Shown: positions 1,516 through 62,810 of the stretch, one piece after another
Layout of the letters: each line of letters starts with the position of its first letter
Numbering within the stretch: the stretch's first letter is position 1
Program-made: the position numbers and the translations under genes
The notes under the pieces: generated by a model
Databases searched by the model: none
Seen by the model: only the letters and a program-made list of their open reading frames with translations
What the model was told of the DNA's origin: nothing
NCBI GenBank assembly: GCA_934466515.1
Contig: CAKSLH010000003.1
Coordinates: 228,472 to 292,471, forward strand
Direction of reading: 5' to 3'
Source: an uncultured Eubacteriales bacterium
GTDB taxonomy: Bacteria > Bacillota > Clostridia > Oscillospirales > Acutalibacteraceae
DNA: 64,000 nucleotides

Positions 1516-2238
1516 ATGAAATTAAAATTCAAATCGGTTTTGGCTGTTATACTGTCGGCTTTATTGCTGCTTTCCTTTGCTGCTTGCAGCCCTATTGACA
1601 ATAATTACGGGGTCGAAAGCTCAAAACCAGAATCCGCCGAAAAAACCGCTTCCATTCCCGAAATTAAATCTACCGATGTCGTAATGTCAAATTATTTTGA
1701 TATAAGTAAGTATGATGAAGAAAATTATGCCGATATTTATCTCGGTAAGAAATTTTCTTATAAAATCACCTATTCCGGCAGCGAGCTTACCCTGCCTTTT
1801 AGCTTTAAGGAGCTTGAAAAGAAGGGCTTTAAGCTGTCAGAAGGCTATGATGAAAACGATACGGTGTTCGCCGGAGAAATGAGCGAGGTTATTTTTGAAA
1901 ATGAATACGGAAATATTTTAAACGCCGTGTTTTATAATTCGGGAAAATCCTCTCAGAAATTAAAAAAGTGCGATATTGTGGAATTTTCCGTTCCCGAGAA
2001 TTCACTTCTTGTCAAGGAGTCTAAATACGGACAGTTCTGGATAAATGGCATTACTAACGGAAGCGCTATAACGGATATTACGGATTATATCGGCGCGCCC
2101 TCGCATTTTTACTCTGCCGACGGTAATATTTACTGTCTCGATTTCTTTATGGGAAAAGACGATAAGCGCAGTAAAATGTCGATAACGGTTGATGTTGCAA
2201 ATGATAATGTTATTTCCGTTAAGGTTTCAAAATTTTAA
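1516..2238 (+). CDS. hypothetical lipoprotein
   Basis: Signal peptide with lipobox LLLLSFAAC|S. ATG 1516 is preceded by ggaagagg, and an intrinsic terminator follows. Confidence 0.6.
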   Translation: MKLKFKSVLAVILSALLLLSFAACSPIDNNYGVESSKPESAEKTASIPEIKSTDVVMSNYFDISKYDEENYADIYLGKKFSYKITYSGSELTLPFSFKELEKKGFKLSEGYDENDTVFAGEMSEVIFENEYGNILNAVFYNSGKSSQKLKKCDIVEFSVPENSLLVKESKYGQFWINGITNGSAITDITDYIGAPSHFYSADGNIYCLDFFMGKDDKRSKMSITVDVANDNVISVKVSKF

Positions 2239-2264
2239 ACCTGCGTTAAAACGCAGGTTTTTTA
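2237..2264 (+). terminator. rho-independent terminator
   Basis: Hairpin acctgcg-ttaaa-acgcaggt followed by a T-run. Confidence 0.7.
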
Positions 2265-3540: not shown

Positions 3541-4455
3541 CTAAAATAAACTTTCCTTTGCATGAATAAGGTCGACAATCAGGGAATGATAAGGGGTTTC
3601 AATTCCGTATTTTTTGCCTAAGCGGACAACCGCTCCGTTTATAAAGTCGATTTCGGTTTTGCGCTTGTTTTCCATATCCTGACACATTGAGGCTTTTCCT
3701 GTTCCTAAAACTTTTGCGGTGGTTATTACCTCGCTGTAAACCTGCTCCGCGTCGAATTTTTCTCCGTCCGCCTCGGCAACCATTGCCGCCTCTTCAATAA
3801 GCTTCTTTGCCGCATTTGAAGCATTTTGTGAATCCGAAATAATGCTTATATTCGCGTCAAGAAGGGAGGTAACGGAATTTATTGTCATGTTGATAAAAAG
3901 CTTTTGCCAAAGAAGCCTTTTAACATCTTCGCAGGCTTCTGTTTCGATATCGCAGGCGTTAAAGACCTCTGCGATTTTTTGTGCCGCTCCGCTGTTTCCT
4001 GCAGGCGAGCCTAAATGAGTTATTCCTGAGCCCGAATGGTAAATTTCGCCTGCGTTTAAGCTTACGCAGTTGTGCTTTGTAGTGCCTAAAAGGATTTGAT
4101 TTTTATGGGCGAATTCTTCCATTATCTCAAAATTTCCGAGTCCGTTCTGCAAGGATAAAAGCAAGGTGTTTTCTTTTATGAGTGAGGAGTTTGATTTTAA
4201 AGCCGCTCTCGTTGCGGTGTCCTTGACAAATACGATTAAAAGCTCCGGCGCCTCTTCAAGCTCTCCGCTGAAGGTAGCTTTAACCTTGTAGGTTTTCTTT
4301 TCCTTGCTGTCAGCCGAGGTCATGGTTATTCCCTTTTCGTTAATCGCTTTAACGGCGGTTTCGCTGACATCAAGCAGTGTAACATCATTATTTTTGCTTA
4401 AAAGGCTTGCGTAAAGACAGCCCATCGCTCCTGCTCCGATAATACCTATTTTCAT
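3541..4455 (-). CDS. panE: 2-dehydropantoate 2-reductase (ketopantoate reductase)
   Basis: MKIGIIGAGAMG Rossmann N-terminus. Length and pattern match ApbA/PanE. Confidence 0.8.
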   Translation of the reverse strand: MKIGIIGAGAMGCLYASLLSKNNDVTLLDVSETAVKAINEKGITMTSADSKEKKTYKVKATFSGELEEAPELLIVFVKDTATRAALKSNSSLIKENTLLLSLQNGLGNFEIMEEFAHKNQILLGTTKHNCVSLNAGEIYHSGSGITHLGSPAGNSGAAQKIAEVFNACDIETEACEDVKRLLWQKLFINMTINSVTSLLDANISIISDSQNASNAAKKLIEEAAMVAEADGEKFDAEQVYSEVITTAKVLGTGKASMCQDMENKRKTEIDFINGAVVRLGKKYGIETPYHSLIVDLIHAKESLF

Positions 4456-4567
4456 AAAATCATTTCGCTTTCTTTTAAAAAATTAAAAGGATGTCCTTAG
4501 AAATCTTCTAAAGACATCCTTGCCTTAAAGCTTATTTATTATACAATCGCTTTTTCGATTTGTCAAG

Positions 4568-6124
4568 CTATTTTGCATAATCTACGGCCCTGTTTTCCCT
4601 GATAAGATTTATCTTTATCTGTCCGGGGTATTCAAGCTCGTTTTCGATTTTTTCGGCAATCTGATGAGCAATTATTACCATCTGATCGTCGCTGATGACC
4701 TCGGGCTTAACAATAATTCTTATCTCTCTTCCTGCCTGAATTGCATAGGAGTCCTCTACTCCGCTGAAGGAATTGGCGATTTCCTCAAGCTTTTCAAGTC
4801 TCTTGATGTAATTTTCAATGTTTTCTCTTCTTGCTCCCGGTCGTGCCGCAGAAATTGCGTCAGCCGCCTGAACAATGCAGGCGATAACGGTTTTTGCTTC
4901 GACATCGCCGTGGTGAGCGTGAATGGCATGAATAACAGCTTCGCTTTCGCGGTATTTCTTTGCCGCCTCAACACCGAGCTGAATGTGCGAGCCCTCCTGC
5001 TCATGGTCGATAGCTTTTCCGATATCATGTAAAAGTCCCGCGCGCTTTGCAAGAGTAACATCTGCTCCGAGCTCTGCTGCGATAAGTCCGGAAAGGTGGC
5101 AGACCTCAAGCGAGTGGTTTAAAACATTCTGTCCGTAGCTTGTGCGGAAATGCAGACGGCCTAAAAGCTTGATAAGCTCAGGGTGAAGATTTTGAACACC
5201 CGATTCTATCATCGCGCGCTCGCCCTCCTGCTTAATTATTGCGTCAACCTCGGCGGTAGCCTTTGCAACGGTTTCCTCAATTCTTGCAGGATGAATTCTT
5301 CCGTCAATAACAAGCTTTTCAAGCGTTCTTCTCGCGATTTCTCTTCTTATAGGCTCAAAGCTTGAAACGGTTATCGCTTCGGGTGTATCGTCAATAATTA
5401 AATCAACGCCCGTTGCGTTTTCAATAGCTCTTATGTTTCTGCCCTCTCGGCCGATGATTCTTCCCTTCATTTCGTCATTGGGAAGCGGAACTACCGAAAC
5501 GGTCATTTCCGAAGAATGGTCGGCCGCACAGCGCTGAATTGCTCTGCCGATGATTTCCTTTGCAATCTCGTCAGCCTCATCCTTAGTGCGCTGCTCGTAA
5601 TCCATTATCTTGACGGCTTTTTCGTGAGTAAGCTCTCCGTCAAGCGCGTTTAAAAGCTCAGCTTTCGCCTGATCCTTTGAAAAGCCCGATATTTTTTCGA
5701 GCATGTCAAGCTGACTGCGCTTTATTTGCTCGCATTCCGCCATTCTTTCGTCAATTTCCTTGGAACGGGCGGCAAGCTTTTCTTCCTTGATTTCGATGTT
5801 GTCAGTCTTTCTGTCAAGGGTTTCTTCCTTTTGCTGGAGCCTGTGCTCCTGACGCTGAATTTCACTTCTGCGCTCGCGAAGCTCTTTTTCAGTGTCCTGT
5901 CTTAACTGGTGAATTTCTTCCTTTGCTTCAAGAAGAGTTTCTTTTTTCTTGGTTTCTGCAACACGCATTGCGTCGTTTAAAATGCGCTTTGCTTCGTCTT
6001 CAGCTGAACCGATAGCCTTTTCGGCGGATTTTCGGCGGTGAATTGAGCCTAAAACAAACCCTATTACCGCAAGAACCAGACCGACAGCTACTGGAATTAC
6101 AATCCGAATAACTTCTGAGTCCAT
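4568..6124 (-). CDS. rny: ribonuclease Y
   Basis: N-terminal TM helix, coiled coil, KH domain ([15 protein letters not shown]) and HD domain (LLHDIGKA). 518 aa. Confidence 0.92.
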
Positions 6125-6310
6125 TAAATATTAACCTCCAATATAAAAAACGGGTATTTACCGGCTTTTTAGAACTATCTGACCGGACGGTGACCGTATT
6201 TTCCACCGGATAAAAATTTTAACAGTGTGATATAAAGCTCGCCATAGCTTTTAACACATAGTAGAATTTACCAATCTAATTTTATCATTTTATAGGCTTA
6301 CTGTCAAGTC

Positions 6311-7342
6311 TCATACAAAATAAAAGCATGTGTCCCATGCGGGAAGGCTTTTAAAATGTCTCATAAAAATTTTATATTTTCCGTTTATATTTAAAACCTT
6401 TTCGGGCAAAGTGAAAAGATCCTCGCTTCGATGGTAGCAGGAAATTGCCATTTTCGGCTTGTTTTCGGTTATAACCTCTTTGGCACCGTCAAGCATTTTA
6501 AGCTCGGCTCCCTCAATGTCTGCTTTGATAAAGGTTGCGCTTTTGCAAATGCTGTCAACCTTGACCGATTTTATCTCATAGTTTCCTTTTCCCGCGCTTG
6601 AACCGCGCGACGAGGTCATGTCAAAGCTTACCTCCTCGCATTTGTCAAGCACGCAGGCATTGATTAAGGCTGTTTTTTCTAAAGCTTTCGCATAATTTTC
6701 GAGCTTTTTGAAATTTTTAATATCCGGCTCAACAGCGGTTATCGAGGAATAGCCGTTGACTCGGCTTAAAAAATCGCTTACGGTGTCTCCGCGGTAAGCG
6801 CCTAAATCCAAGTAATTTTCACTTTCAGAGAGCGTAAAAAAGCTTTCATAAGGCTCGTCCTGATTTACCTCGCAGTCAAAAAGATAATCTATATCTCCCG
6901 TGATTTTGTAAAGAACGGTGTTTTTGAAGGTTTTCTTTGAAATTTCATCGGCAAGCATACCGTAAACCCATTCTAACCGTTCTCGGTTTTTTAACGCAAA
7001 TTCCATATCAAACAGGTTTTTTCCGTAAACAGGCACATCGGGCGCATAAAGCTCATGCTTTGATTTTATTTTTTTAATGTTTGCTATAACCTCGTCCCTT
7101 GCCGAGCCGAAGCATAATAAAACCGTAAAATCCTTGTATTTATCTTCAAAATATTTCAGATTTTCAATGTGAAAGCCGCGGAAAACCTTGTCCCTTACAA
7201 ATTCGTCGCTTGCAAAAATTCCGTCTGCTTTAATGCCCTTAGACTCCATGATGTTTAGTATTTTATCGGCACCGTTTCCCATGCCGTAAAGAATTATCGG
7301 CTTGTCCGAGGCGCTAAGCCTTGACCATAAATCTTTTATCAT
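6311..7342 (-). CDS. FkbM family methyltransferase
   Basis: C-terminal FkbM-type SAM methyltransferase domain (LDLGAYRGDTVSDFL). Confidence 0.6.
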   Translation of the reverse strand: MIKDLWSRLSASDKPIILYGMGNGADKILNIMESKGIKADGIFASDEFVRDKVFRGFHIENLKYFEDKYKDFTVLLCFGSARDEVIANIKKIKSKHELYAPDVPVYGKNLFDMEFALKNRERLEWVYGMLADEISKKTFKNTVLYKITGDIDYLFDCEVNQDEPYESFFTLSESENYLDLGAYRGDTVSDFLSRVNGYSSITAVEPDIKNFKKLENYAKALEKTALINACVLDKCEEVSFDMTSSRGSSAGKGNYEIKSVKVDSICKSATFIKADIEGAELKMLDGAKEVITENKPKMAISCYHRSEDLFTLPEKVLNINGKYKIFMRHFKSLPAWDTCFYFV

Positions 7343-9006: not shown

Positions 9007-9090
9007 GCGAGTGTGCTGGAATAGGCAGACAGGCACGTTTGAGGGGCGTGTGTCTTCGACGTATGGGTTCAAGTCCCATCACTCGCACCA
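9007..9090 (+). tRNA. tRNA-Leu (anticodon GAG)
   Basis: Seven-bp acceptor stem GCGAGTG/CACTCGC with encoded CCA, long variable arm, anticodon loop TTGAGGG. Confidence 0.85.
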
Positions 9091-25802: not shown

Positions 25803-25842
25803 AAACAAGGAGTTAAATCGTATGATTTAACTCCTTGTTTTT
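25803..25842. terminator. bidirectional terminator
   Basis: aacaaggagttaaatcgtatgatttaactccttgtttttt. Confidence 0.8.
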
Positions 25843-26837
25843 TAAAGCTCTGCCGAAAAAGTTATATTGTTTTCGCTGTCGCATTTGGCATAAATTTTTC
25901 CTTTATGGCATTCTGTTATGCTTTTTGCAATCGAAAGTCCTATTCCGAAACCGCCGGTTTCACGGCTTCTTGATTTGTCCGCCCTGTAAAATCTTTCAAA
26001 AAGCTGTCCGAGCGTTTCGGGGTCAAGCTTTTCGTCTACTTTATTTGTAACAGATAAAACCGTTTTCCTCTTTATTCTTTTAAGCGTTACTTCAATCGGT
26101 GAATTCAAAGAGGCGTATTTTATCGCATTATCAATAAAAATGGAGCATAACTGCCTTATCGCGTATTCATCTCCGCAATAATCAAGGTCTGGCTCAATGA
26201 GGGATAATAATGTATGTCCGTTTAAGGATGAAAAATCCTCAAAGGATTTGACCGTTTCTCTAAGAGCGTCAGAAATCTTAAATTCCTTCATTTTAAGCGG
26301 AGACTGCTCCTCGTCGAGCCGAGAAAGAGCAACAAGGGAATTTACAAGCTCTTTAAGCTTTTCGTTCTGCGCTTTCGCCTTGTCGATCCATTTGTTTTTG
26401 CCCGTTTCCATTTCGAGAACCTTAAGACTTGTCGCGATAACCGTTATCGGGGTTTTAAGCTCATGTCCTGCGTCGGTTATAAACTGTTTTTGCTTTTCGT
26501 ATCCTCTTACGACAGGATCAATCGCTCTTCTTGAGCATAAAACAACAATTATAAATATTAAAATTATGCAGACAGTCATTGTGGATAATGAAATAATAAG
26601 AACCTTTAAAAGTGAGCTTATTTCCATTTGTGCGTCCAAATATACTGCCATAAAACCGTTTTCGGTTTTAGTAACTTTAAATTTATAGCCGTTTTTAAAT
26701 CCGTAGCCAACCCCGTGATTTATGGCGGCTTTTAAATATTCGTCGGTATCGTTTTGGCTTACTGCCGCAATGTTGTCAAGATTTGAAGAAGTAAGCTTTC
26801 CCTCAGTGCCGTATTCCAAAACGAAATATCTCGTCAT
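25842..26837 (-). pseudogene. sensor histidine kinase, 5'-truncated (no TM1, no start codon for the in-frame sensor-domain extension to 26997)
   Basis: HisKA (HELKTPITVI) and HATPase (GGFGIGLSIAKS) domains are intact. The reading frame stays open upstream for about 54 codons (up to 26997, just inside the TAA at 26998-27000) without any ATG, GTG or TTG. No response regulator is adjacent. Confidence 0.55.
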
Positions 26838-27035
26838 AAACGGCTTTTCTCTGTCCTGCCTGTCATCAGGCTTTTGGTCGGGCTTCTTATCGTCGAATAC
26901 AGGATGGGGAAAAGAGCCGCTGTTGCCGCTGATTGAATCAAGGGTGCGGTTAAGCTGAGAATTAACCGTGGCAAAGCGAAGCTTTGACGGAAGGGTTTGT
27001 TTATATTAAGTGCCGTCAGGCACAGTGCTTAAAAT

Positions 27036-27082
27036 TAAAAAGTCCCACTGTTTCAAATGAGTGAAACAGTGGGTAAATTTTT
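27036..27082 (-). terminator. intrinsic terminator of manA
   Basis: Perfect inverted repeat cccactgtttca-aatgag-tgaaacagtggg with a T-run on the minus strand. Confidence 0.8.
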
Positions 27083-27089
27083 TAACCGA

Positions 27090-28061
27090 TTACAGGTGGG
27101 AGCAAAGAATAGTTGCGGTTCCGGAAACCGTTACCTTTAAATTTGCGGGAATAAAAAGGCTGTCACCTTTTTTAACCGTCATATTTCCGGACGGATAGGA
27201 CACCGTCGCCTCGCCGTCAAGTACAACAGCTGAAACAAAGCTACCGTCGCCGTGAATTCCGGCAATTCCGTTAAGCTCTAAAAGCTCTGCGGTAAACTTA
27301 TCGCATTCAGCAAGAGTTCTTGAAATTCCGAAAGGATACAGCGTTTTTTCGCCGACATCGCCGTAAGGCACGGACGGCGGAGCCGTAACGGTGACATCTA
27401 CAGCCTTGTCTATATGAAGCGCACGGGGCTTGCCGTCCGCTCCGAGCCTGCCGTAGTCCGAAACTCGGTAGGTGGTATTTGAATTCTGCTGAACCTCGGC
27501 TATAAGAATTCCGGCTCCAATGGCATGGAGCGTGCCCGATTTAATAAAGAAAACATCGCCCTTGTGAACATCGACAAAATTGCAGACCTCAGTAAGCGTG
27601 TTATCCTTTATTCTCCGTTTGAATTCTACCTTATCAATTGATTTATTAAATCCGTAGATAAGCTGAGCGCCCTCTTCACAGTCAACAACATACCACATTT
27701 CGGTCTTGCCGTACTCGCCCTCGTTTTTAAGTGCGTATTCATCGTCGGGGTGAACCTGAACCGAAAGCCTGTCCTTAGCGTCGATAAGCTTTATAAGAAG
27801 CGGAAAATAAGGAAAAGCCGCGGCTTTTTCGCCTAAAGCGTCCTTGCCTAAGACTTCAAGCGCCTCACTTAAGGTCTTTCCCGCAAGATATCCGTTTTTA
27901 ACAATGCTTTCGCCGTCCTTATGGCAGGATAAAACCCACGCCTCGGCAGCCTTGTCAAGCTTGGTTTCATATCCGAATTCATCTATAAGTCTTCTTCCGC
28001 CCCATAAATAGTCTTTTATCGGAGCTTTAAGTAAAAGAGGATACATAACAATCATCTCCAT
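27090..28061 (-). CDS. manA: mannose-6-phosphate isomerase, class I
   Basis: LKAPIKDYLWGG and QVHPDD motifs. Confidence 0.85.
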   Translation of the reverse strand: MEMIVMYPLLLKAPIKDYLWGGRRLIDEFGYETKLDKAAEAWVLSCHKDGESIVKNGYLAGKTLSEALEVLGKDALGEKAAAFPYFPLLIKLIDAKDRLSVQVHPDDEYALKNEGEYGKTEMWYVVDCEEGAQLIYGFNKSIDKVEFKRRIKDNTLTEVCNFVDVHKGDVFFIKSGTLHAIGAGILIAEVQQNSNTTYRVSDYGRLGADGKPRALHIDKAVDVTVTAPPSVPYGDVGEKTLYPFGISRTLAECDKFTAELLELNGIAGIHGDGSFVSAVVLDGEATVSYPSGNMTVKKGDSLFIPANLKVTVSGTATILCSHL

Positions 28062-35986: not shown

Positions 35987-36072
35987 GCCGGTGTGTCGGA
36001 ATGGCAGACGAGACAGACTCAAAATCTGTTGTCAGCAATGGCGTGTGGGTTCAAGTCCCACCACCGGCACCA
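35987..36072 (+). tRNA. tRNA-Leu (anticodon CAA)
   Basis: Acceptor stem GCCGGTG/CACCGGC with encoded CCA, anticodon loop CTCAAAA, long variable arm. Confidence 0.85.
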
Positions 36073-43741: not shown

Positions 43742-44554
43742 TTAGAGCTTTAATATTCTTTTTGCATTTTCGCTTAAAATCATTTTCTGTTCATTTTCGC
43801 TTAAGTTCAGATTTAAAAATAATTTTAATTCGTTTTCGGGGTCGTTCATCGGGTAGTCTGTTCCGAAAAGCACTCTGTCGGCACCGTATCTTAAAATAAT
43901 CTCTTTTGCCTTTTTAGGTGTAAGAAAAGCGAGACTTGATGAGCAGTCAACATAGAAATTGTTAAGCTTATTTGAGGAGCAGATTTCTTTGCTTGCTTCG
44001 TCCCAAATCGTATATCCGCCGAAATGCGCTCCGATAACAGTTAGCTTTGAATAAATCTCAAGGATAGGAATAAGCCGGTTCGGGTTTGAAAAATCATATC
44101 TTTTGTCGCCCGTGTGCATTAAAATCGGCAGTCCGTATTCCTCGCAAAGCTCGTAAATTTTAAGGCACCTGTAATCATCAATTTTAAAGCCCTGAATATC
44201 GGGGTGGAGCTTTATTCCCTTTAAGCCCAATTCTTTTAAATGCCTTAGATCTCCCCTGATATCGCCCGAATCGGGATGAAGAGTTCCGAACCCTGTAAGA
44301 ATATCAGGGTGCAATGAAACCTCTCTTGCTATAAACTCATTTATGCTTTTAACCTGATGCGGAGTTGTCGCGACCGACTGAACAATACAGCGGTCAATTC
44401 CGCATTTTTCACATTTTTGAATAAGCTGATTAACCGTGCCGGAGCAAGCAGGCTTGCCGCCGTAAAAAGCGCCTGTTGCGTTGGCGGCTTTTTCGGCAAG
44501 CATATCAGGATAAATGTGACAGTGCGCGTCGATAACGGTTTTCTGATTTACCAT
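43742..44554 (-). CDS. amidohydrolase family (TIM-barrel metal-dependent hydrolase)
   Basis: N-terminal DAHCHIYP motif. 270 aa. Confidence 0.7.
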   Translation of the reverse strand: MVNQKTVIDAHCHIYPDMLAEKAANATGAFYGGKPACSGTVNQLIQKCEKCGIDRCIVQSVATTPHQVKSINEFIAREVSLHPDILTGFGTLHPDSGDIRGDLRHLKELGLKGIKLHPDIQGFKIDDYRCLKIYELCEEYGLPILMHTGDKRYDFSNPNRLIPILEIYSKLTVIGAHFGGYTIWDEASKEICSSNKLNNFYVDCSSSLAFLTPKKAKEIILRYGADRVLFGTDYPMNDPENELKLFLNLNLSENEQKMILSENAKRILKL

Positions 44555-45618
44555 TATTTTATCGGATAGGTCCAGCCGTATTTATCTTCGGTTCTGCCCC
44601 ACTGTAATCCTGTAAGGACATCATAAAGGTGCTTTGTAACCTCGCCGATTTTTCCTTCGCTTACTGTAAACTTCTCGTCATTATAACAAAGCTCGCCGAT
44701 AGGTGAAACAACAGCCGCCGTACCCGTGCCCCAAGCCTCTTCTAATTTTCCGCTTCTTGCGGCGTCCATAAGCTCGTCAACGGATAAAAGCCTTTCTTCG
44801 ACCGTATATCCCTCGTCCTTTAAAATCTCAATGCAGGATTTTCTTGTAATTCCGGGGAGAATTGAGCCTGTAAGTGCAGGGGTGACTATTTTGCCGTCGA
44901 TTTTAAACATTACGTTCATCGCGCCTACCTCTTCGATGTACTTTCTTTCAACACCGTCAAGCCATAAAACCTGAGAATATCCCTTTTTCTCCGCAAGCAT
45001 TCCCGCGCGGTTGCTTGCGGCATAGTTTCCGCCGCATTTTGCCTCTCCGGTTCCGCCTCTTACTGCTCTTACATCCTTTGATTCAATCATTATTTTAACG
45101 GGATTGAGTCCCTCTGCATAGTAGCTTCCTACGGGCGACGCTATAATAACAAAGGTTGCGTTTTTAACCGCATGAACACCTAAGCTTTCGTCATTTCCGA
45201 ACATAAACGGGCGGAGATAAAGCGAGGTTCCTTTCTCGCTCGGAGTCCAGTCCTTGTCGACTGAAACAAATGTTGTAAGCGCTTTTAAACCGTCTTCTTC
45301 GGGAATCTGCGGAAGACACATTCTTTCTGCCGAGCGGTTAAGCCTTTTAATGTTTTCAAGCGGTCTGAAAAGCTGAACGCTTCCGTCCGCCTTGCGGTAA
45401 GCCTTAAGACCCTCAAAAATCTCGACGCCGTAATGGAAAACGGTTGACGCAGGGTGTACAGAGAGGTTTTCAAAGGGAACTATTCTGGCATTGTGCCAGC
45501 CGAGGCCGTTTGAATATTCCATAATAAACATATGGTCTGTAAAATATTTGCCGAAGCCTAAATTTTTTGAATCCGGCTTTTGTTTAGGCGAAGATGTTTT
45601 AACAATTTTGATTTCCAT
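44554..45618 (-). CDS. ilvE: branched-chain amino acid aminotransferase
   Basis: Class IV aminotransferase, 354 aa, GFGKYFTDHMF N-terminus. Confidence 0.88.
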   Translation of the reverse strand: MEIKIVKTSSPKQKPDSKNLGFGKYFTDHMFIMEYSNGLGWHNARIVPFENLSVHPASTVFHYGVEIFEGLKAYRKADGSVQLFRPLENIKRLNRSAERMCLPQIPEEDGLKALTTFVSVDKDWTPSEKGTSLYLRPFMFGNDESLGVHAVKNATFVIIASPVGSYYAEGLNPVKIMIESKDVRAVRGGTGEAKCGGNYAASNRAGMLAEKKGYSQVLWLDGVERKYIEEVGAMNVMFKIDGKIVTPALTGSILPGITRKSCIEILKDEGYTVEERLLSVDELMDAARSGKLEEAWGTGTAAVVSPIGELCYNDEKFTVSEGKIGEVTKHLYDVLTGLQWGRTEDKYGWTYPIK

Positions 45619-45668
45619 AAAGATTTTCCTTTCTTAGGCGGGTTCTGTCAAACTGCACACCGAAACGC

Positions 45669-45698
45669 AAAAAACCGCCTCAAATTTCTTTGAGACGG
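45669..45698 (-). terminator. intrinsic terminator inside ilvE leader (attenuator)
   Basis: Minus strand ccgtctcaaa-gaaa-tttgaggcgg followed by a six-T run, 50 nt upstream of the ilvE ATG. Confidence 0.6.
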
Positions 45699-45903
45699 GT
45701 GAAAATCATCCGCAGTGCGACTCAAAACAGGCTCGGTTTTTAGCTTTTCCCTTTTTGCCTTTGGCGTTCACGCAGCATTTACGGGAAGCTTTTAAGCTTC
45801 CGGCTCCGAAGATAAAACAACCTGTCTGACGGCTCGCACCGAACGCCGCCTCTCTGATAAAAGCCTTTTATCTTCATCATAGCTTTTATAAATTTATGAG
45901 CAT

Positions 45904-45932
45904 ATTATAGTACTCATATTTTGATTTGTCAA
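45904..45932 (-). promoter_or_regulatory. consensus promoter for ilvE leader
   Basis: Minus strand TTGACA - 17 nt - TATAAT. Confidence 0.7.
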
Positions 45933-46067
45933 TCTTTTTTAAAAATAAAAATTTTTCTTAAGACTGATTTAATGCTTCTAAAACCCCCGTTTAGGGCAAG
46001 GGAGGCTTAAATACCACACATACTGGATACTAGACACTAGACGGTAGATGTTAGAGAATACCCCTCA

Positions 46068-46235
46068 GTCACCTTGCGGTGACAGCTCCCCTCTGTTTTT
46101 CGGTTACACCGAAAAAAGAAGGGAGCCTTTTCTTTAGTCTCAGCTGAAACTCAAGCTTCCCCTTTAGTCGAAAGGGGAAGTGTCAAGGCGTAGCCCTTGA
46201 CGATAGGGTTTGGTTATATCAGTGCCAAAAGGCAC
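46068..46235. other. array of five perfect stem-loops, candidate structured ncRNA of unknown class
   Basis: Perfect stem-loops at 46068-46083, 46096-46116 (enclosed by a gctccc/gggagc stem), 46156-46180, 46182-46201 and 46222-46235. The region is GC-richer than its flanks. Confidence 0.35.
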
Positions 46236-46294
46236 ACACTTGTTTAATATTAAATATCAAATATCCGCGAAGATTTAATTTGTTTTAATTTTTC

Positions 46295-46323
46295 TTGAAA
46301 TATATATTTTTATGTGATATTAT
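46295..46323 (+). promoter_or_regulatory. promoter of zinc-ribbon/TM2 gene
   Basis: TTGAAA - 17 nt - TATTAT. Confidence 0.55.
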
Positions 46324-46351
46324 AAAAATATACTTGTATGGGAGTGATTTT

Positions 46352-46753
46352 ATGTTCTGTAAAAATTGCGGAAATGAAATGGATCAAAATGCCGCTGTAT
46401 GCGTTAAATGCGGATACGGTAAGGGAAAAGGAAATAAATTCTGCCCCAACTGCGGAAGCGAGCTTGAGCCTAACGCTCAGTTTTGCGTAAAATGCGGAGT
46501 TTCGGTTGCGCCCGAGCAGCAAATAAACCCTCTTAATCAGAAATCGAAAATCGCCGCGGGTCTGCTCGGAATTTTCTTGGGCGGATTTGGAATACATAAT
46601 TTTTATTTGGGATATACCGGTAAAGCCGTAGGTCAGCTTGTGCTTACAATCTGCTCCTGCGGAATAGGCGGAATTTGGGGCTTTATCGAGGGCATTCTCA
46701 TTCTTTGCGGAAATATAAATACCGACGCAAACGGCGTTCCGCTTAAAGACTGA
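46352..46753 (+). CDS. zinc-ribbon + TM2 domain protein
   Basis: Two CxxC...CxxC zinc ribbons followed by a TM2 domain (LGIFLGGFGIHNFYLGY). RBS gggagtg before ATG 46352. Confidence 0.7.
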   Translation: MFCKNCGNEMDQNAAVCVKCGYGKGKGNKFCPNCGSELEPNAQFCVKCGVSVAPEQQINPLNQKSKIAAGLLGIFLGGFGIHNFYLGYTGKAVGQLVLTICSCGIGGIWGFIEGILILCGNINTDANGVPLKD

Positions 46754-47097
46754 TGAAGAAAAATAAAACAATAAAAAACGCAATCAAGCCGATTGCGTTT
46801 TTTTCTGCATTTCTTTTAAGTATAGCGTTTTTATATTTTTCTGGAATTCACTGCCCGTTTAAAAAATTTCTTAATATTGAATGCGCAGGCTGCGGAATGA
46901 CAAGAGCGTATTTTTCGCTTTTTAAGGGCGATATAAAATCCGCCTTTAAATATAATCCGCTTTTCTTTACGGTGCCTTTAATAATCTTCGGGGTTTTAAG
47001 AGACGGAAAGATAACAGGCAGAAGGATAATAGATATAATAATTTTTGCAGGTTTACTCATAGGATTTATAATTTTATTTGTTTTAAGACAAATATAA
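46753..47097 (+). CDS. DUF2752 domain membrane protein
   Basis: CPFKKFLNIECAGCGMTRA motif typical of DUF2752. Start overlaps the previous stop (ATGA). Confidence 0.7.
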   Translation: MKKNKTIKNAIKPIAFFSAFLLSIAFLYFSGIHCPFKKFLNIECAGCGMTRAYFSLFKGDIKSAFKYNPLFFTVPLIIFGVLRDGKITGRRIIDIIIFAGLLIGFIILFVLRQI

Positions 47098-47129
47098 AAG
47101 CACTTCTCGAAATCGGAGAAGTGCTTTTT
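47097..47129. terminator. bidirectional terminator
   Basis: aaaagcacttctcgaaatcggagaagtgcttttt. Confidence 0.8.
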
Positions 47130-47145
47130 CTTGTAAGATAAACAA

Positions 47146-47544
47146 TTATCTCTTTGAGAACTGCGGTGCGCGGCGAGCGCCTTTTAAACCGTACTTCTTT
47201 CTTTCCTTCATTCTCGGGTCACGAGTGAGGAAGCCTGCCTTCTTAAGAGCAGGACGGAGCTCTTCATTAGCCTGAAGAAGCGCTCTTGATATTCCGTGAC
47301 GGATAGCACCGGCCTGACCGGTAACACCGCCGCCGGTAACACGGCAGACAACATCATACTTGCCGATATTATCTGTAAGCGCAAGAGGCTGGCGAACGAT
47401 AAGCTTAAGAGTCTCAAGACCGAAATATTCGTCTATATCGCGGTCGTTAATTGTGATTTTTCCGGTACCGTTATAAACGCGAACGCGGGCAACAGAACTT
47501 TTTCTTCTGCCGGTGCCGTAAAAATAAGGCTTTCCTTCAAACAT
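47146..47544 (-). CDS. rpsI: 30S ribosomal protein S9
   Basis: C-terminal RRAPQFSKR signature. 132 aa. Confidence 0.95.
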
Positions 47545-47561
47545 TGTTTCTGTCTCCCTTC

Positions 47562-47990
47562 TTAAAATTCAAGCTTTTCGGGCTTCTGAGCAACCTGATC
47601 AAACTTCTCGCCCTTATAGACATGAAGTCTGGTAAGTGCCTTGCGGCCGATAGTAGTGTCCGGAATCATACCTTTAACAGCAAGCTCAACTGCAAGCTCA
47701 GGCTTTGTATTCATAAGAGTTGAATACTGAACCTCTTTGAGTCCGCCGACAAATCCGGTGTGACGGCGGTAATACTTCTTTTCAAGCTTCTTTCCTGTTA
47801 AAACTGCTTTTTCAGCGTTGATAACTACGACATGATCGCCGCAGTCAACATGGGGAGTAAATTCAGGCTTGCCCTTTCCGCGAAGAAGATCGGCAACCTT
47901 TACAGCGGTGCGGCCGAGCGGTCTGTCGGCAGCGTCCACAATATACCATTTACGCTGAATTTCAGCAGGTTTTGCCATAAATGTAGACAT
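47562..47990 (-). CDS. rplM: 50S ribosomal protein L13
   Basis: [21 protein letters not shown]-terminus. The true start is ATG 47990; the track ORF is extended upstream. Confidence 0.93.
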
Positions 47991-48216
47991 TTTCAAAACC
48001 TCCGTAAAATCAAATTTAAAACATTTCAGCCCGATTATCATACCACACGCTTTTTTGTTTGTCAACACTTAATTTTCAATTTTTTAATTTACAAAACTCA
48101 AATCTCGTGTTTTCTCTTATTTTCTCGTTTTATCTCTCATTTGCTCACTTTCGATTTTCAAAAATATAATAATTGAAAATAAGGAAATAATATGATAATA
48201 TATAATTAAATAAGTT

Positions 48217-61157: not shown

Positions 61158-62810
61158 TTGATTAAGAAATTATCAAAACTGTTTTCTCTTGTCTTTTCCG
61201 TGCTTTTCTTGCTTACAGTAATGTATATTCCTGTTTCGGCACTTAACGAAAATGAAGCGGTATTTTCCCTTTCCGGCACAAGCGGCGTTAAAAAGGGAGA
61301 TACCGTAGTCGTTGAAATTTCGGTAAATGCCGGAAGCGGCACTAAGATTAATGGTATGGACTTTTCTCTGCTTTTTGAAAGCGAGTATCTTTCTTATATA
61401 AGCGGCTCTGCCAAGTTAAATATGAATACGGATAATTCACCTACCGTGAGTGTTCTTAATAACAGATTAAATCTTGCTTGGGACAGCGGAACCTCTGTTA
61501 CGCTTGCAAGCGGGAAATTTGCTTCATTTAGCTTCAGAGTTGAAAATATAAGCAAGGAGCTTGAGGTTAAGCTTAATTTCGGTTCGTGCTATGCGATAAG
61601 CATAGTTTCTGGACGGGTAGTATATAAGGATATAGCAGTAAGCGTATCAAACACCGCTCTTATAAAAGGCGATAATGAAGACGCGGCAGTAAATGCCGTA
61701 ATAGCGGCAATTGACGGAATTGGCGAGGTAACCGCCGGCAGTAAATCTCAGCTGGATCTGATTTATAATGCTTATAAAAGCCTGTCTCAGGCTCAAAAGC
61801 AAAAAGTTACTAATTATGATAAGCTTGCAGAAGCTATAAGAAAGTGCGATGAGTTGATAAAGCAGGAAGAAAACGACCCTGTTGCAAAGGAAATCAAGGA
61901 TTATAAGATAAAGTACAGCGAGGCTTTAAATCTTCGCGTCAGTACGGTAGGGCCTAACGATGTCGAAAAGCTTACCGAGGCTCTTGAAGCTATGAAAAAG
62001 CTTTCTTCACAGGCACAGGTTGAGCTTTTAAGAACAAAATATCTTCTTGACTCTGTTTTAGCAAAGGCAAAGGAGCTTAAAAGCGAAGAAGACAGAAAAA
62101 ACAATGAAGAAAAACTCAGAGCCGAGGCAGAGGCTTTGGCAAATGAATACCGAAACGGTATTTATAAATGGGTGTTTGCTTTAACGACGGATACCGTCAA
62201 AATCGTTGACGGAGAGGGCGTTAATCTCGCTTATGAAGAGCTGTTGAATATTGAGATAATAAATGATATTGCTTTCAAGCTTTTGGCGCCTGAAAAGAAA
62301 CTTCTGGAATCACTTAAAAAGAGAATAGACGAGTTGAAGCTTATACAGAATCCCGAGCTTTCGGCAGCAATTGCCAAGGCAAACGATTTCAGGGAAAAAT
62401 TCGGATTTTTGTTCACTCTTAAGGATGATGAAGTTACATACGACGAAAAAATAGATATTTATATTGCCTATGAGCTTCTCAATTCTTATGATGAGGATGT
62501 AAAGGAATTGCTTTCCTCCGAGCTTGAAAGACTTGAGCAATTGATGTCTATTGCAGGCGGCCTTGAGCCTGACGAGGTCAAAGAGGTTGAAACCGTTGTG
62601 AATGAAATAACTAAAATAAAAACAGTTCACGACACCTCCGGCTTAGGAGAGTTAAAGGTTGATTTGAGCTCGAGAAAAATGAGCCTTACAGCTTATATTC
62701 TTATGGGTCTGTGTGTGCTTTCGGCAATTCTCCTCGGCATTCTGAGATACGCTTACTATAAATTGAGAAAGCGTTATTATCCGGAACAGTTTATGAAAGG
62801 GGGGATATGA
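61158..62810 (+). CDS. membrane-anchored cohesin-domain protein (scaffoldin-like)
   Basis: Signal peptide. Cohesin-like beta-sandwich (about aa 35-165: KKGDTVVVEISVNAGSGTKINGMDFSLLFESEYLSYISGS). Long helical region and a C-terminal TM helix. TTG start with RBS aaaggag. Confidence 0.55.
   Translation: MIKKLSKLFSLVFSVLFLLTVMYIPVSALNENEAVFSLSGTSGVKKGDTVVVEISVNAGSGTKINGMDFSLLFESEYLSYISGSAKLNMNTDNSPTVSVLNNRLNLAWDSGTSVTLASGKFASFSFRVENISKELEVKLNFGSCYAISIVSGRVVYKDIAVSVSNTALIKGDNEDAAVNAVIAAIDGIGEVTAGSKSQLDLIYNAYKSLSQAQKQKVTNYDKLAEAIRKCDELIKQEENDPVAKEIKDYKIKYSEALNLRVSTVGPNDVEKLTEALEAMKKLSSQAQVELLRTKYLLDSVLAKAKELKSEEDRKNNEEKLRAEAEALANEYRNGIYKWVFALTTDTVKIVDGEGVNLAYEELLNIEIINDIAFKLLAPEKKLLESLKKRIDELKLIQNPELSAAIAKANDFREKFGFLFTLKDDEVTYDEKIDIYIAYELLNSYDEDVKELLSSELERLEQLMSIAGGLEPDEVKEVETVVNEITKIKTVHDTSGLGELKVDLSSRKMSLTAYILMGLCVLSAILLGILRYAYYKLRKRYYPEQFMKGGI

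What the first reader, a model, noticed from the sequence alone, without database searches (positions are those of the whole stretch)
46068..46235. Dense array of five perfect stem-loops in a 170-bp GC-rich patch between ilvE and a zinc-ribbon gene
The hairpins are gtcaccttgcggtgac; tttttcggttacaccgaaaaa (nested inside a gctccc...gggagc stem); cttcccctttagtcgaaaggggaag; gtcaaggcgtagcccttgac; and gtgccaaaaggcac. They sit back to back, each with a different sequence, so this is not a repeated MITE. The patch lies outside the ilvE leader promoter (45904-45932, minus strand) and upstream of the zinc-ribbon gene promoter (46295-46323). No conserved motif of RNase P, SRP, tmRNA, 6S or a T-box is recognisable. 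It may be a small RNA, a processing or terminator platform, or a protein-binding structured DNA.
Basis: seen in the sequence. Interest (0 to 1): 0.55.

Follow-up and report, generated by a model that had tools for sequence, protein, structure and literature searches.

The report
Dispersed palindromic repeat, not an sRNA
The hairpin cluster is one copy of a repeated, REP-like palindromic DNA element that is scattered through gut Clostridia (Oscillospirales) and their phages and that I did not find in Rfam or the searchable literature, rather than a small-RNA gene specific to this site.

Summary
The hairpins are real and sit at the stated coordinates. They fold far better than shuffles (z about -6 on either strand, as RNA or DNA). 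They are not unrelated. The patch is two ~55-nt double-hairpin units in inverted orientation (46061-46127 plus strand; 46155-46212 minus strand), with a spacer, a 7-nt array and a small outer hairpin. A covariance model built only from other contigs finds exactly these two units and a third solo unit at 26954-27000 in the window (E about 1e-5 to 1e-6). The unit's 20-22-nt core occurs in more than 120 gut-metagenome stretches and 29 viral contigs. It lies between genes, up to six units per 7 kb, and once in frame inside a phage ATPase gene. Stems covary strongly (258 double changes against 79 in shuffles) with almost no wobble intermediates and no strand bias. The patch is absent from the sister species and two further relatives. 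Strains of the same species carry it with whole stems swapped. No Rfam family and no paper matches. Best reading: a new family of REP/BIME-like dispersed palindromes, inserted between two divergent promoters. The sRNA idea is not supported, though it is untested by transcriptomics.

The parts
45952..46273 (.). Region with no counterpart in the closest relative (L001). L001 has an unrelated AT-rich spacer of about 113 bp here, and in L002/L003 the two divergent promoters abut.
   Evidence: BLAST of window 44000-48000 against the loci and the alignment A1. Model R1 finds nothing in L001-L003.
46030..46057 (+). Array with a 7-nt period (CTAGACA CTAGACG GTAGATG TTAGAGA), directly 5' of the left unit. 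L186 carries a comparable array at the same relative place.
   Evidence: Regex scan and the L186 sequence. TRF does not score it, so it is weak evidence.
46061..46127 (+). Left repeat unit ('type 1'). It comprises the flank CCCCTC, then hairpin A (46068-46083, foot GTCA..TGAC, loop TTGC), then hairpin B (46085-46126, CTCCC..GGGAG with a nested inner stem).
   Evidence: Model R1, built without window sequences: 27.3 bits, E 1.4e-5. nhmmer without window seeds: E 1e-9.
46127..46154 (.). Spacer between the units, with a weak hairpin at 46133-46148. It is missing from strains L233, L236 and L237.
   Evidence: Folds and the within-species alignment A3.
46155..46212 (-). Right repeat unit, inverted. 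Hairpin E (46182-46201) corresponds to hairpin A, and hairpin D (46155-46181) to hairpin B. The flank AAACCCTATC corresponds to the left flank and forms the short closing stem with it.
   Evidence: Model R1: 29.6 bits, E 3.4e-6, full-length match.
46222..46235 (.). Outer hairpin F (GTGCC-AAAA-GGCAC), preceded by TTTGGTTATAT. This extension also accompanies the solo unit near 27000 and the element in L186.
   Evidence: nhmmer of the 3' frame and the sequences themselves.
26954..27014 (-). Second locus in the window: a solo 'type 2' unit (26954-27000) plus a copy of hairpin F (27001-27014). It lies between the terminator of the upstream minus-strand gene (27090-28061) and a histidine-kinase gene.
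   Evidence: Model R1: 27.0 bits, E 1.7e-5. nhmmer with the patch as query: E 5e-5. Pfam on the kinase.

Best explanation
The patch is a composite copy of a dispersed palindromic repeat family, of the same kind as enterobacterial REP/BIME (REPIN) elements.

The basic unit is 50-60 nt. It has a pyrimidine-rich flank (AAC[CT]C[CT][CT]TC) and then hairpin A. Hairpin A has a fixed foot (GTCA...TG[AC]C) but a freely variable inner stem. One base follows, and then hairpin B (CTCCC...GGGAG).

Here two units lie in inverted orientation around a short spacer. Their flanks therefore pair and the whole looks like a five-hairpin junction. A 7-nt array and a small outer hairpin belong to the local version of the element.

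Shown: it is a repeat, it is absent from the orthologous site of the nearest relatives, and its stems are kept complementary while their sequences turn over.

Inferred: it arrived by, and diversifies through, DNA-level processes that act on hairpins. Candidates are cleavage and joining of single-stranded DNA by a HUH/Y1-type nuclease that reads the foot and flank (as RAYTs do for REPs), gene conversion between copies, and template switching. At this site it sits upstream of both divergent promoters. It is therefore probably untranscribed and neutral, doing no more than spacing the promoters about 300 bp apart.

Where such units lie inside operons, for example between the binding-protein and ATPase genes of a methionine-type ABC transporter, they would be transcribed. 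By analogy with REP they could then act as 3' hairpin barriers that stabilise upstream mRNA.
For: Repeat status:
- A covariance model built from 17 units of other contigs finds exactly three significant matches in 64 kb: the two halves of the patch and 26954-27000.
- There are 128 units at E<0.001 in 325 kb of those loci, up to 6 in about 7 kb (L124), often as inverted pairs.
- There are 4 units in 603 kb of relatives' ilvE loci, in records titled Acutalibacteraceae, Eubacteriales and Ruminococcus sp. MAGs.
- Host loci have G+C from 0.38 to 0.64.

Same architecture elsewhere: L113, L117, L124, L083, L081 and L226 all show flank, A, B, linker, B', A', flank'. L186 has the same outer frame as the window at an unrelated locus, after a LUD-domain gene.

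Structure kept, sequence free:
- 33 distinct A and 76 distinct B hairpins were parsed.
- On the model alignment 91.5% of cells pair, against 75.9% in shuffles. There are 258 cells with double changes against 79, and a covariation score of 0.384 against 0.150 (0/500 shuffles reach it). Slid controls give at most 0.13.

DNA-level signature:
- One-sided (wobble) changes number 0-4 per pair, against up to 39 double changes.
- G.T and C.A mismatches are equally rare, 12 against 12.
- One unit is inserted in frame in the linker of a phage AAA_24 ATPase gene.

Insertion and turnover: the patch is absent in L001-L003. Strains with the identical neighbouring protein carry it with hairpin A, the inner stem of B and the spacer exchanged or deleted.

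No known RNA: there is no Rfam match to the patch or to units in seven other loci.
Against: - No cognate transposase or nuclease was found. A crude motif scan of 1.7 Mb of held DNA found no Y1/HUH protein, and no whole genome could be searched.
- The canonical REP guide tetranucleotide GT[AG]G is absent.
- No clean empty site or target duplication defines an insertion event, because L001 has a different spacer rather than a precise gap.
- Copy number in this genome is known only for 64 kb (two loci), and relatives show about 1 unit per 150 kb.
- The model alignment is fitted to the structure, and many rows are strain variants of a few loci, so the covariation counts are inflated.
- Partner-specific covariation of the closing stem is not significant (6.8 against 6.5 of 10; 211 of 2000 shuffles reach it).
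- A rough gene-orientation count for solo units (13 in the sense of the flanking genes, 3 opposite) could point to an RNA-level role, but the gene calls behind it are crude.
- The reverse strand always folds slightly better as RNA.
Confidence: 0.75

Rival explanations
1. The patch is an independent small-RNA gene, or a member of a structured non-coding RNA family. It would be transcribed from a promoter inside or beside the element: on the plus strand from TAGACA-17-GAGAAT at 46031-46059, ending at hairpin F, or on the minus strand from 46228-46200. The multi-hairpin fold would be the functional product.
For: - The fold is strong and the stems covary.
- There is a 9/12 promoter-like site just 5' of the left unit and a weak terminator-like hairpin F with the tail ACACTTGTTT.
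- L186 has a similar -10-like GAAAAT before the unit and a T-run after F.
- Hairpin A loops read GNRA or GNA on the reverse strand, and the reverse strand folds 2-12 kcal/mol better.
Against: - The patch is absent from the orthologous site in the three nearest relatives.
- The same unit occurs solo, in pairs, in both orientations, inside operons and in frame inside a gene.
- There are almost no wobble intermediates and no strand asymmetry.
- The promoter-like sites are only 9/12 and are not conserved as such.
- Internal hairpins are deleted or replaced between strains.
- No Rfam family matches.
Confidence: 0.07
2. The patch is a selected cis-acting element at this locus. It would be a bidirectional transcription barrier or insulator, or a protein-binding platform, that keeps the divergent ilvE T-box promoter and the zinc-ribbon promoter from interfering. 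More generally it could be an mRNA-end stabiliser or processing site.
For: - The patch sits exactly between two strong divergent promoters.
- All eight same-species loci returned by the lookup retain it.
- Elsewhere, units lie right after stop codons and between operon genes. One example is between an NlpA-type binding-protein gene and an ABC ATPase gene, the layout in which REPs stabilise upstream mRNA (the REP function is from established knowledge).
Against: - Both promoters fire away from the element, so no known transcript crosses it.
- Relatives work with abutting promoters or with an unstructured spacer.
- Its internal parts are dispensable between strains.
Confidence: 0.1
3. The patch is a scar of phage or integrative-element DNA (an attachment or recombination site, or a fragment left by excision) rather than a self-propagating repeat.
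For: - The core module is frequent in viral contigs (29 stretches) and virome records.
- Some strains have integrase genes 600 bp further on.
- L100 shows a local duplication that includes 18 nt of the upstream gene.
Against: - No phage genes flank the patch in the window.
- The same unit is at many chromosomal, non-phage sites, such as a T-box-led ABC-transporter operon and the site after a LUD-domain gene.
- The 3-4-nt loop of hairpin A is too short for the 6-8-bp core of a tyrosine-recombinase site (established knowledge).
Confidence: 0.05

Closest known systems
REP / BIME / REPIN elements of Enterobacteria and Pseudomonas, mobilised by RAYT (TnpA_REP) HUH nucleases
   Same: - Short imperfect palindromes dispersed in intergenic DNA.
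- They occur solo or as inverted doublets.
- There are two unit subtypes that differ by a fixed mismatch and foot bases, comparable to Y and Z REPs.
- Placement after stop codons and between operon genes, including the site between a binding-protein gene and the rest of an ABC-transporter operon.
- Occasional in-frame insertion in flexible protein linkers, as PMC6006769 reports for REPs.
- Presence or absence varies between close relatives.
   Different: - There is no GT[AG]G guide tetranucleotide.
- The unit is a double hairpin (A plus B) of 50-60 nt rather than one palindrome of about 35 nt.
- The hosts are Clostridia (Oscillospirales) and their phages, not Proteobacteria.
- No RAYT was found or could be looked for properly.
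- The same foot and flank are shared across hosts with G+C from 0.38 to 0.64, whereas REPs are described as species-specific (PMC6006769).
BOX and RUP elements of Streptococcus pneumoniae; Correia (Neisseria) and ERIC (enterobacteria) repeats
   Same: These are modular or palindromic intergenic repeats in bacteria, with Firmicutes among the hosts for BOX. They fold into stable hairpins, vary in module number between copies, and have no transposase of their own. This comparison rests on my own knowledge.
   Different: No sequence similarity was seen or tested. Correia and RUP elements have terminal inverted repeats and target duplications typical of IS-derived MITEs, and neither feature could be shown here.
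IS200/IS605-derived palindrome-associated elements (PATEs)
   Same: Non-autonomous and rich in subterminal hairpins. They lack terminal inverted repeats and target duplications and are presumed to move as single-stranded DNA. This comparison rests on my own knowledge and on PMC6006769 for the enzyme family.
   Different: No TnpA was found. No conserved cleavage tetra- or pentanucleotide could be defined. Units here are far shorter and occur as solos.

Membership tests
REP/BIME/REPIN (RAYT-associated) | Short imperfect palindrome present in many dispersed, mainly intergenic copies | tested here: met
   - 3 units in the window.
- 29 viral and at least 120 metagenome stretches carry the core.
- 128 units in 325 kb, up to 6 per locus.
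- Copy number in this particular genome is known only for 64 kb.
REP/BIME/REPIN (RAYT-associated) | Conserved GT[AG]G tetranucleotide 0-2 nt 5' of the hairpin foot (definition as in PMC6006769) | tested here: not met
   The bases before and in the foot are C[AC]|GTCA on one strand and [GC]T|G[GT]CA on the other. No GTAG or GTGG is present.
REP/BIME/REPIN (RAYT-associated) | Inverted doublets of two unit subtypes (BIME/REPIN) | tested here: met
   Plus/minus pairs within 200 nt are common (107 such pairs). Two correlated subtypes exist, CAG..TGACAGC..GAGCC and CCG..TGCCACC..GAGGC. The patch itself is such a doublet.
REP/BIME/REPIN (RAYT-associated) | A cognate single-copy RAYT gene flanked by the repeats (REPtron) | not testable with these tools
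   Only a crude motif scan of 1.7 Mb of held loci was possible, with no hit.
MITE (IS-derived miniature inverted-repeat element) | Terminal inverted repeats plus target-site duplication; an empty site in relatives | tested here: inconclusive
   The two units are inverted relative to each other. A 10-nt inverted repeat (45963-72 with 46214-23, 90%) exists. L001 has a different spacer rather than an empty site, so no duplication can be read.
Any Rfam 15 RNA family (sRNA, riboswitch, ribozyme, leader) | Covariance-model match at or near the gathering score | tested here: not met
   In the patch the best match scores 18 bits at E 2.2 (mir-4679, chance level). Nothing matches over units in 7 other loci.
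Intrinsic terminator | G+C-rich hairpin followed directly by a U-run | tested here: inconclusive
   Two weak terminator-like sites are reported: hairpin F (5 bp, tail ACACTTGTTT) on the plus strand and hairpin D (tail CTTGAGTTTC) on the minus strand. Neither has a proper U-tract.

The most novel reading that the evidence does not exclude
The patch may belong to a REP-like system of gut Oscillospirales and their phages that no Rfam family or paper in my searches matches. In that system a fixed hairpin foot and flank are shared across distantly related hosts (G+C 0.38-0.64), while whole stems are swapped like cassettes, even between strains of one species. That would imply a conserved, still active sequence- and structure-specific protein working in both phage and host genomes. 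Candidates are a HUH nuclease or another hairpin-binding enzyme. It would also make these units hotspots for nested insertion and recombination.
Probability: 0.25. Interest if true: 0.6.

Novelty: new member of a known kind. Interest (0 to 1): 0.4.

Why it matters
Annotation: the result keeps an intergenic hairpin cluster from being annotated as a small RNA. It also provides a working model (R1) for masking or annotating the same repeat in gut metagenome-assembled genomes and viromes. There the repeat can be mistaken for structured RNAs, terminators or phage signatures.

Biology: REP-type repeats and their nucleases are documented mostly in Proteobacteria. A double-hairpin family shared by Clostridia and their phages would extend that picture to the main bacterial group of the human gut. 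It shows strain-level stem swapping and an in-frame insertion in a phage gene. It would also give a tractable marker of recent DNA turnover, since strains differ at these sites.

Tried and rejected
- Rfam over the whole window at gathering threshold and over the region at E<=10 found only the ilvE T-box and two tRNAs.
- Plasmid collection, distant mode: no match.
- Viral scans with patch-specific patterns (the 3' frame AGGGTTTGKTTATAT..AGTGCC, and hairpin D as a 25-mer): nothing.
- nhmmer with a profile free of window sequences found the left unit only. The right unit and the solo copy failed (E 3.2 or no hit). My first assignment of those two was therefore circular. It was re-tested with a covariance model built from other contigs, which does find them.
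- Closing-stem covariation between the partner flanks is not significant. I treat that stem as a by-product of two inverted units.
- Automatic closing-stem finding by duplex energy picked spurious partners and was abandoned.
- Naive ORF calling in G+C-rich contigs gave many false 'in ORF' calls. The orientation counts (13 against 3) are therefore only a hint.
- A Y1/HUH transposase motif scan of all held DNA gave 0 hits, but the patterns were crude.
- Small ORFs in the patch (22-29 aa) were rejected as coding, because a 23-nt indel and stem swaps between strains break them.
- Ideas considered from the sequence alone and dropped: hammerhead-like CUGANGA (position 7 wrong, no Rfam hit); integron attC (the AAC/GTT boxes are at the wrong ends); Xer/dif or other tyrosine-recombinase site (spacer too short); CRISPR-like solitary repeat; a downstream hairpin of a diversity-generating retroelement.
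- A HutP-type UAG-N4 binding array was considered for the 7-nt repeats. Nothing speaks for or against it.
- Literature searches for the core sequence on either strand, and for REP, REPIN or MITE together with Faecalibacterium, Clostridia, Firmicutes or Ruminococcaceae, found no description of this family.

Full report
**1.

Four are perfect. The long one (46085-46126) has a bulged G and one C.A mismatch.

The wider region folds far better than dinucleotide shuffles on both strands:
- RNA plus strand: z -5.7.
- RNA minus strand: z -6.3.
- DNA parameters: z -5.8.

G+C is 0.46-0.48 in the patch, against 0.19-0.29 in the promoter DNA on either side.

The neighbours are as described:
- A 12/12 promoter lies at 45932-45904 on the minus strand. 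It is followed by a T-box match (45688-45889, 59 bits, E 4e-12, under Rfam's cut-off of 93) and ilvE (Aminotran_4).
- A 10/12 promoter with an extended -10 TG lies at 46295-46323, before a zinc-ribbon/TM2 gene.

Rfam has nothing for the patch on either strand.

**2. The patch is not conserved at this locus**

Eighty loci encoding relatives of IlvE were fetched. Their record titles place the organism among uncultured Acutalibacteraceae and other Oscillospirales of the gut.

- The closest relative, L001, has 99% IlvE identity and about 93% DNA identity in the flanks. It matches the window up to 45951 and again from 46274, but has an unrelated AT-rich spacer of about 113 bp in between.
- In L002 and L003 the two divergent promoters abut.
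- The covariance model described below finds nothing in these three loci.

**3. The patch is a repeat**

nhmmer with the patch as query found a second partial copy in the window, near 26915-27041 (E 5e-5).

A distant BLAST against phage records found eight human-faecal virome contigs that share CCCTCAGTCACC(T)TGCGGTGACAGCTCCC. The flanking genes I read in L082 and L083 (IspG-like, Maf-like) look bacterial. In L081 and L083 that core is followed by further hairpins in the same order as in the patch.

- The 22-nt core is in 29 stretches of the viral collection.

Most of the metagenome stretches are one orthologous locus of a common gut bacterium. There are about 30 distinct contexts in all.

One of them, L186, has the same outer frame as the window: a 7-nt array, the flank and hairpin A on one side, and the flank, TTTGGTTATAT and hairpin F on the other. 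Its inner hairpins are different and it sits at an unrelated site, after a LUD-domain gene.

**4. Anatomy of the family**

Comparison of these copies shows a unit of 50-60 nt with four parts:
- a flank, AAC[CT]C[CT][CT]TC;
- hairpin A, with a fixed foot GTCA...TG[AC]C and a variable inner stem;
- one base;
- hairpin B, CTCCC...GGGAG.

There are two correlated subtypes. One reads CAG-GTCA..TGAC-AGC..GAGCC. The other reads CCG-GTCA..TGCC-ACC..GAGGC and carries a conserved T.C mismatch at the second pair.

Units occur solo or as inverted pairs. In a pair the two flanks are complementary and close the structure.
- A and B are the left unit.
- D and E are the right unit, read on the other strand.

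The "different" hairpins are therefore diverged inverted copies of one another.

**5. A non-circular test**

My first profile contained two window sequences. When they were removed, nhmmer still found the left unit (E 1e-9) but not the right unit or the solo copy.

I therefore built a covariance model (R1) from 17 units of other contigs only. With filters off, it gives exactly three significant matches in the 64-kb window:

| Match | Strand | Bits | E-value |
|---|---|---|---|
| 46155-46212 | minus | 29.6 | 3.4e-6 |
| 46061-46127 | plus | 27.3 | 1.4e-5 |
| 26954-27000 | minus | 27.0 | 1.7e-5 |

A fourth, weak match lies at 62189-62222 (E 0.44).

In other searches with R1:
- 4 units in 603 kb of relatives' ilvE loci (L043, L074 twice, L038).
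- 128 units at E<0.001 in 325 kb of the loci that had been fetched by the core pattern, up to six per locus.

**6. Structure is kept while sequence turns over**

I parsed 33 distinct A hairpins and 76 distinct B hairpins. Counts on the model alignment:

| Measure | Observed | Shuffled |
|---|---|---|
| Cells that form a pair | 91.5% | 75.9% |
| Cells changed on both sides | 258 | 79 |
| Covariation score | 0.384 | 0.150 |

No shuffle out of 500 reached any of the three observed values. Slid controls gave covariation scores of at most 0.13.

There are two caveats. The alignment is fitted to the structure, and many rows are strain variants of a few loci.

One-sided (wobble) changes are almost absent: 0-4 per pair, against up to 39 double changes. 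G.T and C.A mismatches are equally rare, 12 each. A functional RNA read from one strand would normally tolerate G.U pairs on that strand. The symmetry fits hairpins that matter, or arise, at the DNA level.

The closing stem shows no partner-specific covariation beyond what two consensus flanks give.

**7. Turnover within one species**

Eight same-species loci were returned by a lookup with the neighbouring zinc-ribbon protein, and all carry the patch. Six of them were aligned with the window, and they differ as follows:
- In L236, hairpin A is GTCGCAAT-TAA-ATTGCGAC instead of GTCACC-TTGC-GGTGAC.
- In L233, L236 and L237, the inner stem of B is TATTGAC-ATTC-GTCAATA instead of TTTTTCGGT-TAC-ACCGAAAAA.
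- In L233, L236 and L237, the 23-nt spacer hairpin is missing.

All variants fold into the same layout.

Elsewhere the loop or stem of hairpin B holds nested extra hairpins (L125 against L134; L100 against L103).

I cannot say whether these changes arise by gene conversion from other copies, by template switching, or by nested insertion.

**8. Contexts elsewhere**

- In the commonest metagenome locus, a full doublet lies between an NlpA-type binding-protein gene and an ABC ATPase gene with a NIL domain, in a T-box-led operon. This is the layout in which E. coli REPs stabilise the upstream message (established knowledge).
- In phage contigs, solo units often follow a stop codon by 3-10 nt and precede the next ribosome-binding site.
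- In L088, L093 and L104, one unit lies in frame in the Pro/Ala-rich linker of an AAA_24 ATPase gene. In-frame REP insertions of this kind are reported in PMC6006769.
- A rough count suggests solo units mostly read in the sense of the flanking genes (13 against 3). The gene calls behind this count are crude.

**9. What it most likely is and does**

The evidence fits a new family of REP/BIME-like dispersed palindromes.

At this site it lies upstream of both divergent promoters, so no known transcript crosses it. Relatives manage with abutting promoters or a plain spacer. The most economical reading is a neutral insertion.

How the family spreads is inferred, not shown. By analogy with REP and RAYT and with IS200/IS605, a HUH nuclease could read the fixed foot and flank on single-stranded DNA. 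I found no such gene in the DNA held and could not search whole genomes.

The canonical GT[AG]G of REPs is absent. I therefore file the element as working like REP/BIME, not as a member of the RAYT-associated REP families.

**10. Rivals**

- An autonomous small RNA cannot be excluded without transcript data. There are 9/12 promoter-like sites and a weak terminator-like hairpin F, and the reverse strand folds 2-12 kcal/mol better. The absence from orthologous sites, the mixed contexts, the dispensable internal hairpins and the lack of wobble pairs all speak against it.
- A selected insulator or stabiliser role at this site is possible but has no support here.
- A phage scar is unlikely, given the many chromosomal, non-phage sites.

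**11. Novelty**

No Rfam family matches. No paper in the searchable library contains the core sequence or describes such repeats in these bacteria.

RAYT groups and Y1 transposases are reported in Clostridia (PMC5581495, PMC6006769), but I saw no REP family tied to them.

I rate this a new member of a known kind and of moderate interest. Two features would be worth following up:
- the cross-host conservation of the foot and flank;
- the cassette-like stem swaps.

Noticed in passing
L088 20-1117 (minus strand); also L093 and L104: One repeat unit lies in frame inside a phage AAA_24 ATPase gene. The Pfam match (1e-62) covers residues 14-223. The unit encodes ..APSQRELSPQVTEGV.. in the Pro/Ala-rich linker that follows.
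   Followed up: partly
L113 2320-4404 (the same locus occurs in more than 70 metagenome contigs): A full doublet sits between an NlpA-type binding-protein gene and an ABC_tran+NIL ATPase gene of a T-box-led operon. This layout is comparable to malE-REP-malF in E. coli.
   Followed up: partly
window 46030-46057; L186 3602-3643: An array with a 7-nt period (YTAGAYN, 4-6 copies, so UAG every 7 nt) lies directly 5' of the left unit in both loci. TRF does not score it, and its role, if any, is unknown.
   Followed up: partly
L235, L238, L240 at about 3830-6400: In some strains of the same species, two Phage_integrase genes follow the DUF2752 gene, where the window has rpsI-rplM. This suggests an integrative element inserted about 600 bp from the patch.
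   Followed up: no
window 45688-45889 (minus strand): The T-box leader upstream of ilvE scores 59 bits, below Rfam's gathering score of 93. It has a terminator-like hairpin at 45698-45675.
   Followed up: no
window 2171-2264 and 9007-9090: ARAGORN calls a tRNA-Ile with an unusual AAT anticodon and a tRNA-Leu (GAG). Rfam at gathering threshold lists neither, only the tRNAs at 35987 and 54820.
   Followed up: no
L145 1246-1400; L202 8173-8400; L134: A unit of about 57 nt (GGGAGCCTCTGTATGCGATGCTGCTTGAGGGATAGATTGCAGTGCATT) is repeated one to three times next to a repeat unit, in different samples at the same locus.
   Followed up: no
window 62189-62222 (minus strand): A weak fourth match to the unit model (10.4 bits, E 0.44), with flank AACGCCCTCTCC and foot GTCA..TGAC. 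It may be a decayed copy.
   Followed up: no
window 25842-26837 (minus strand), with its upstream region 26838-27089: The histidine-kinase ORF (HisKA + HATPase_c) appears to have only one predicted membrane segment, and no response-regulator gene is evident beside it. I did not test either point. The solo repeat unit lies in its upstream region.
   Followed up: no
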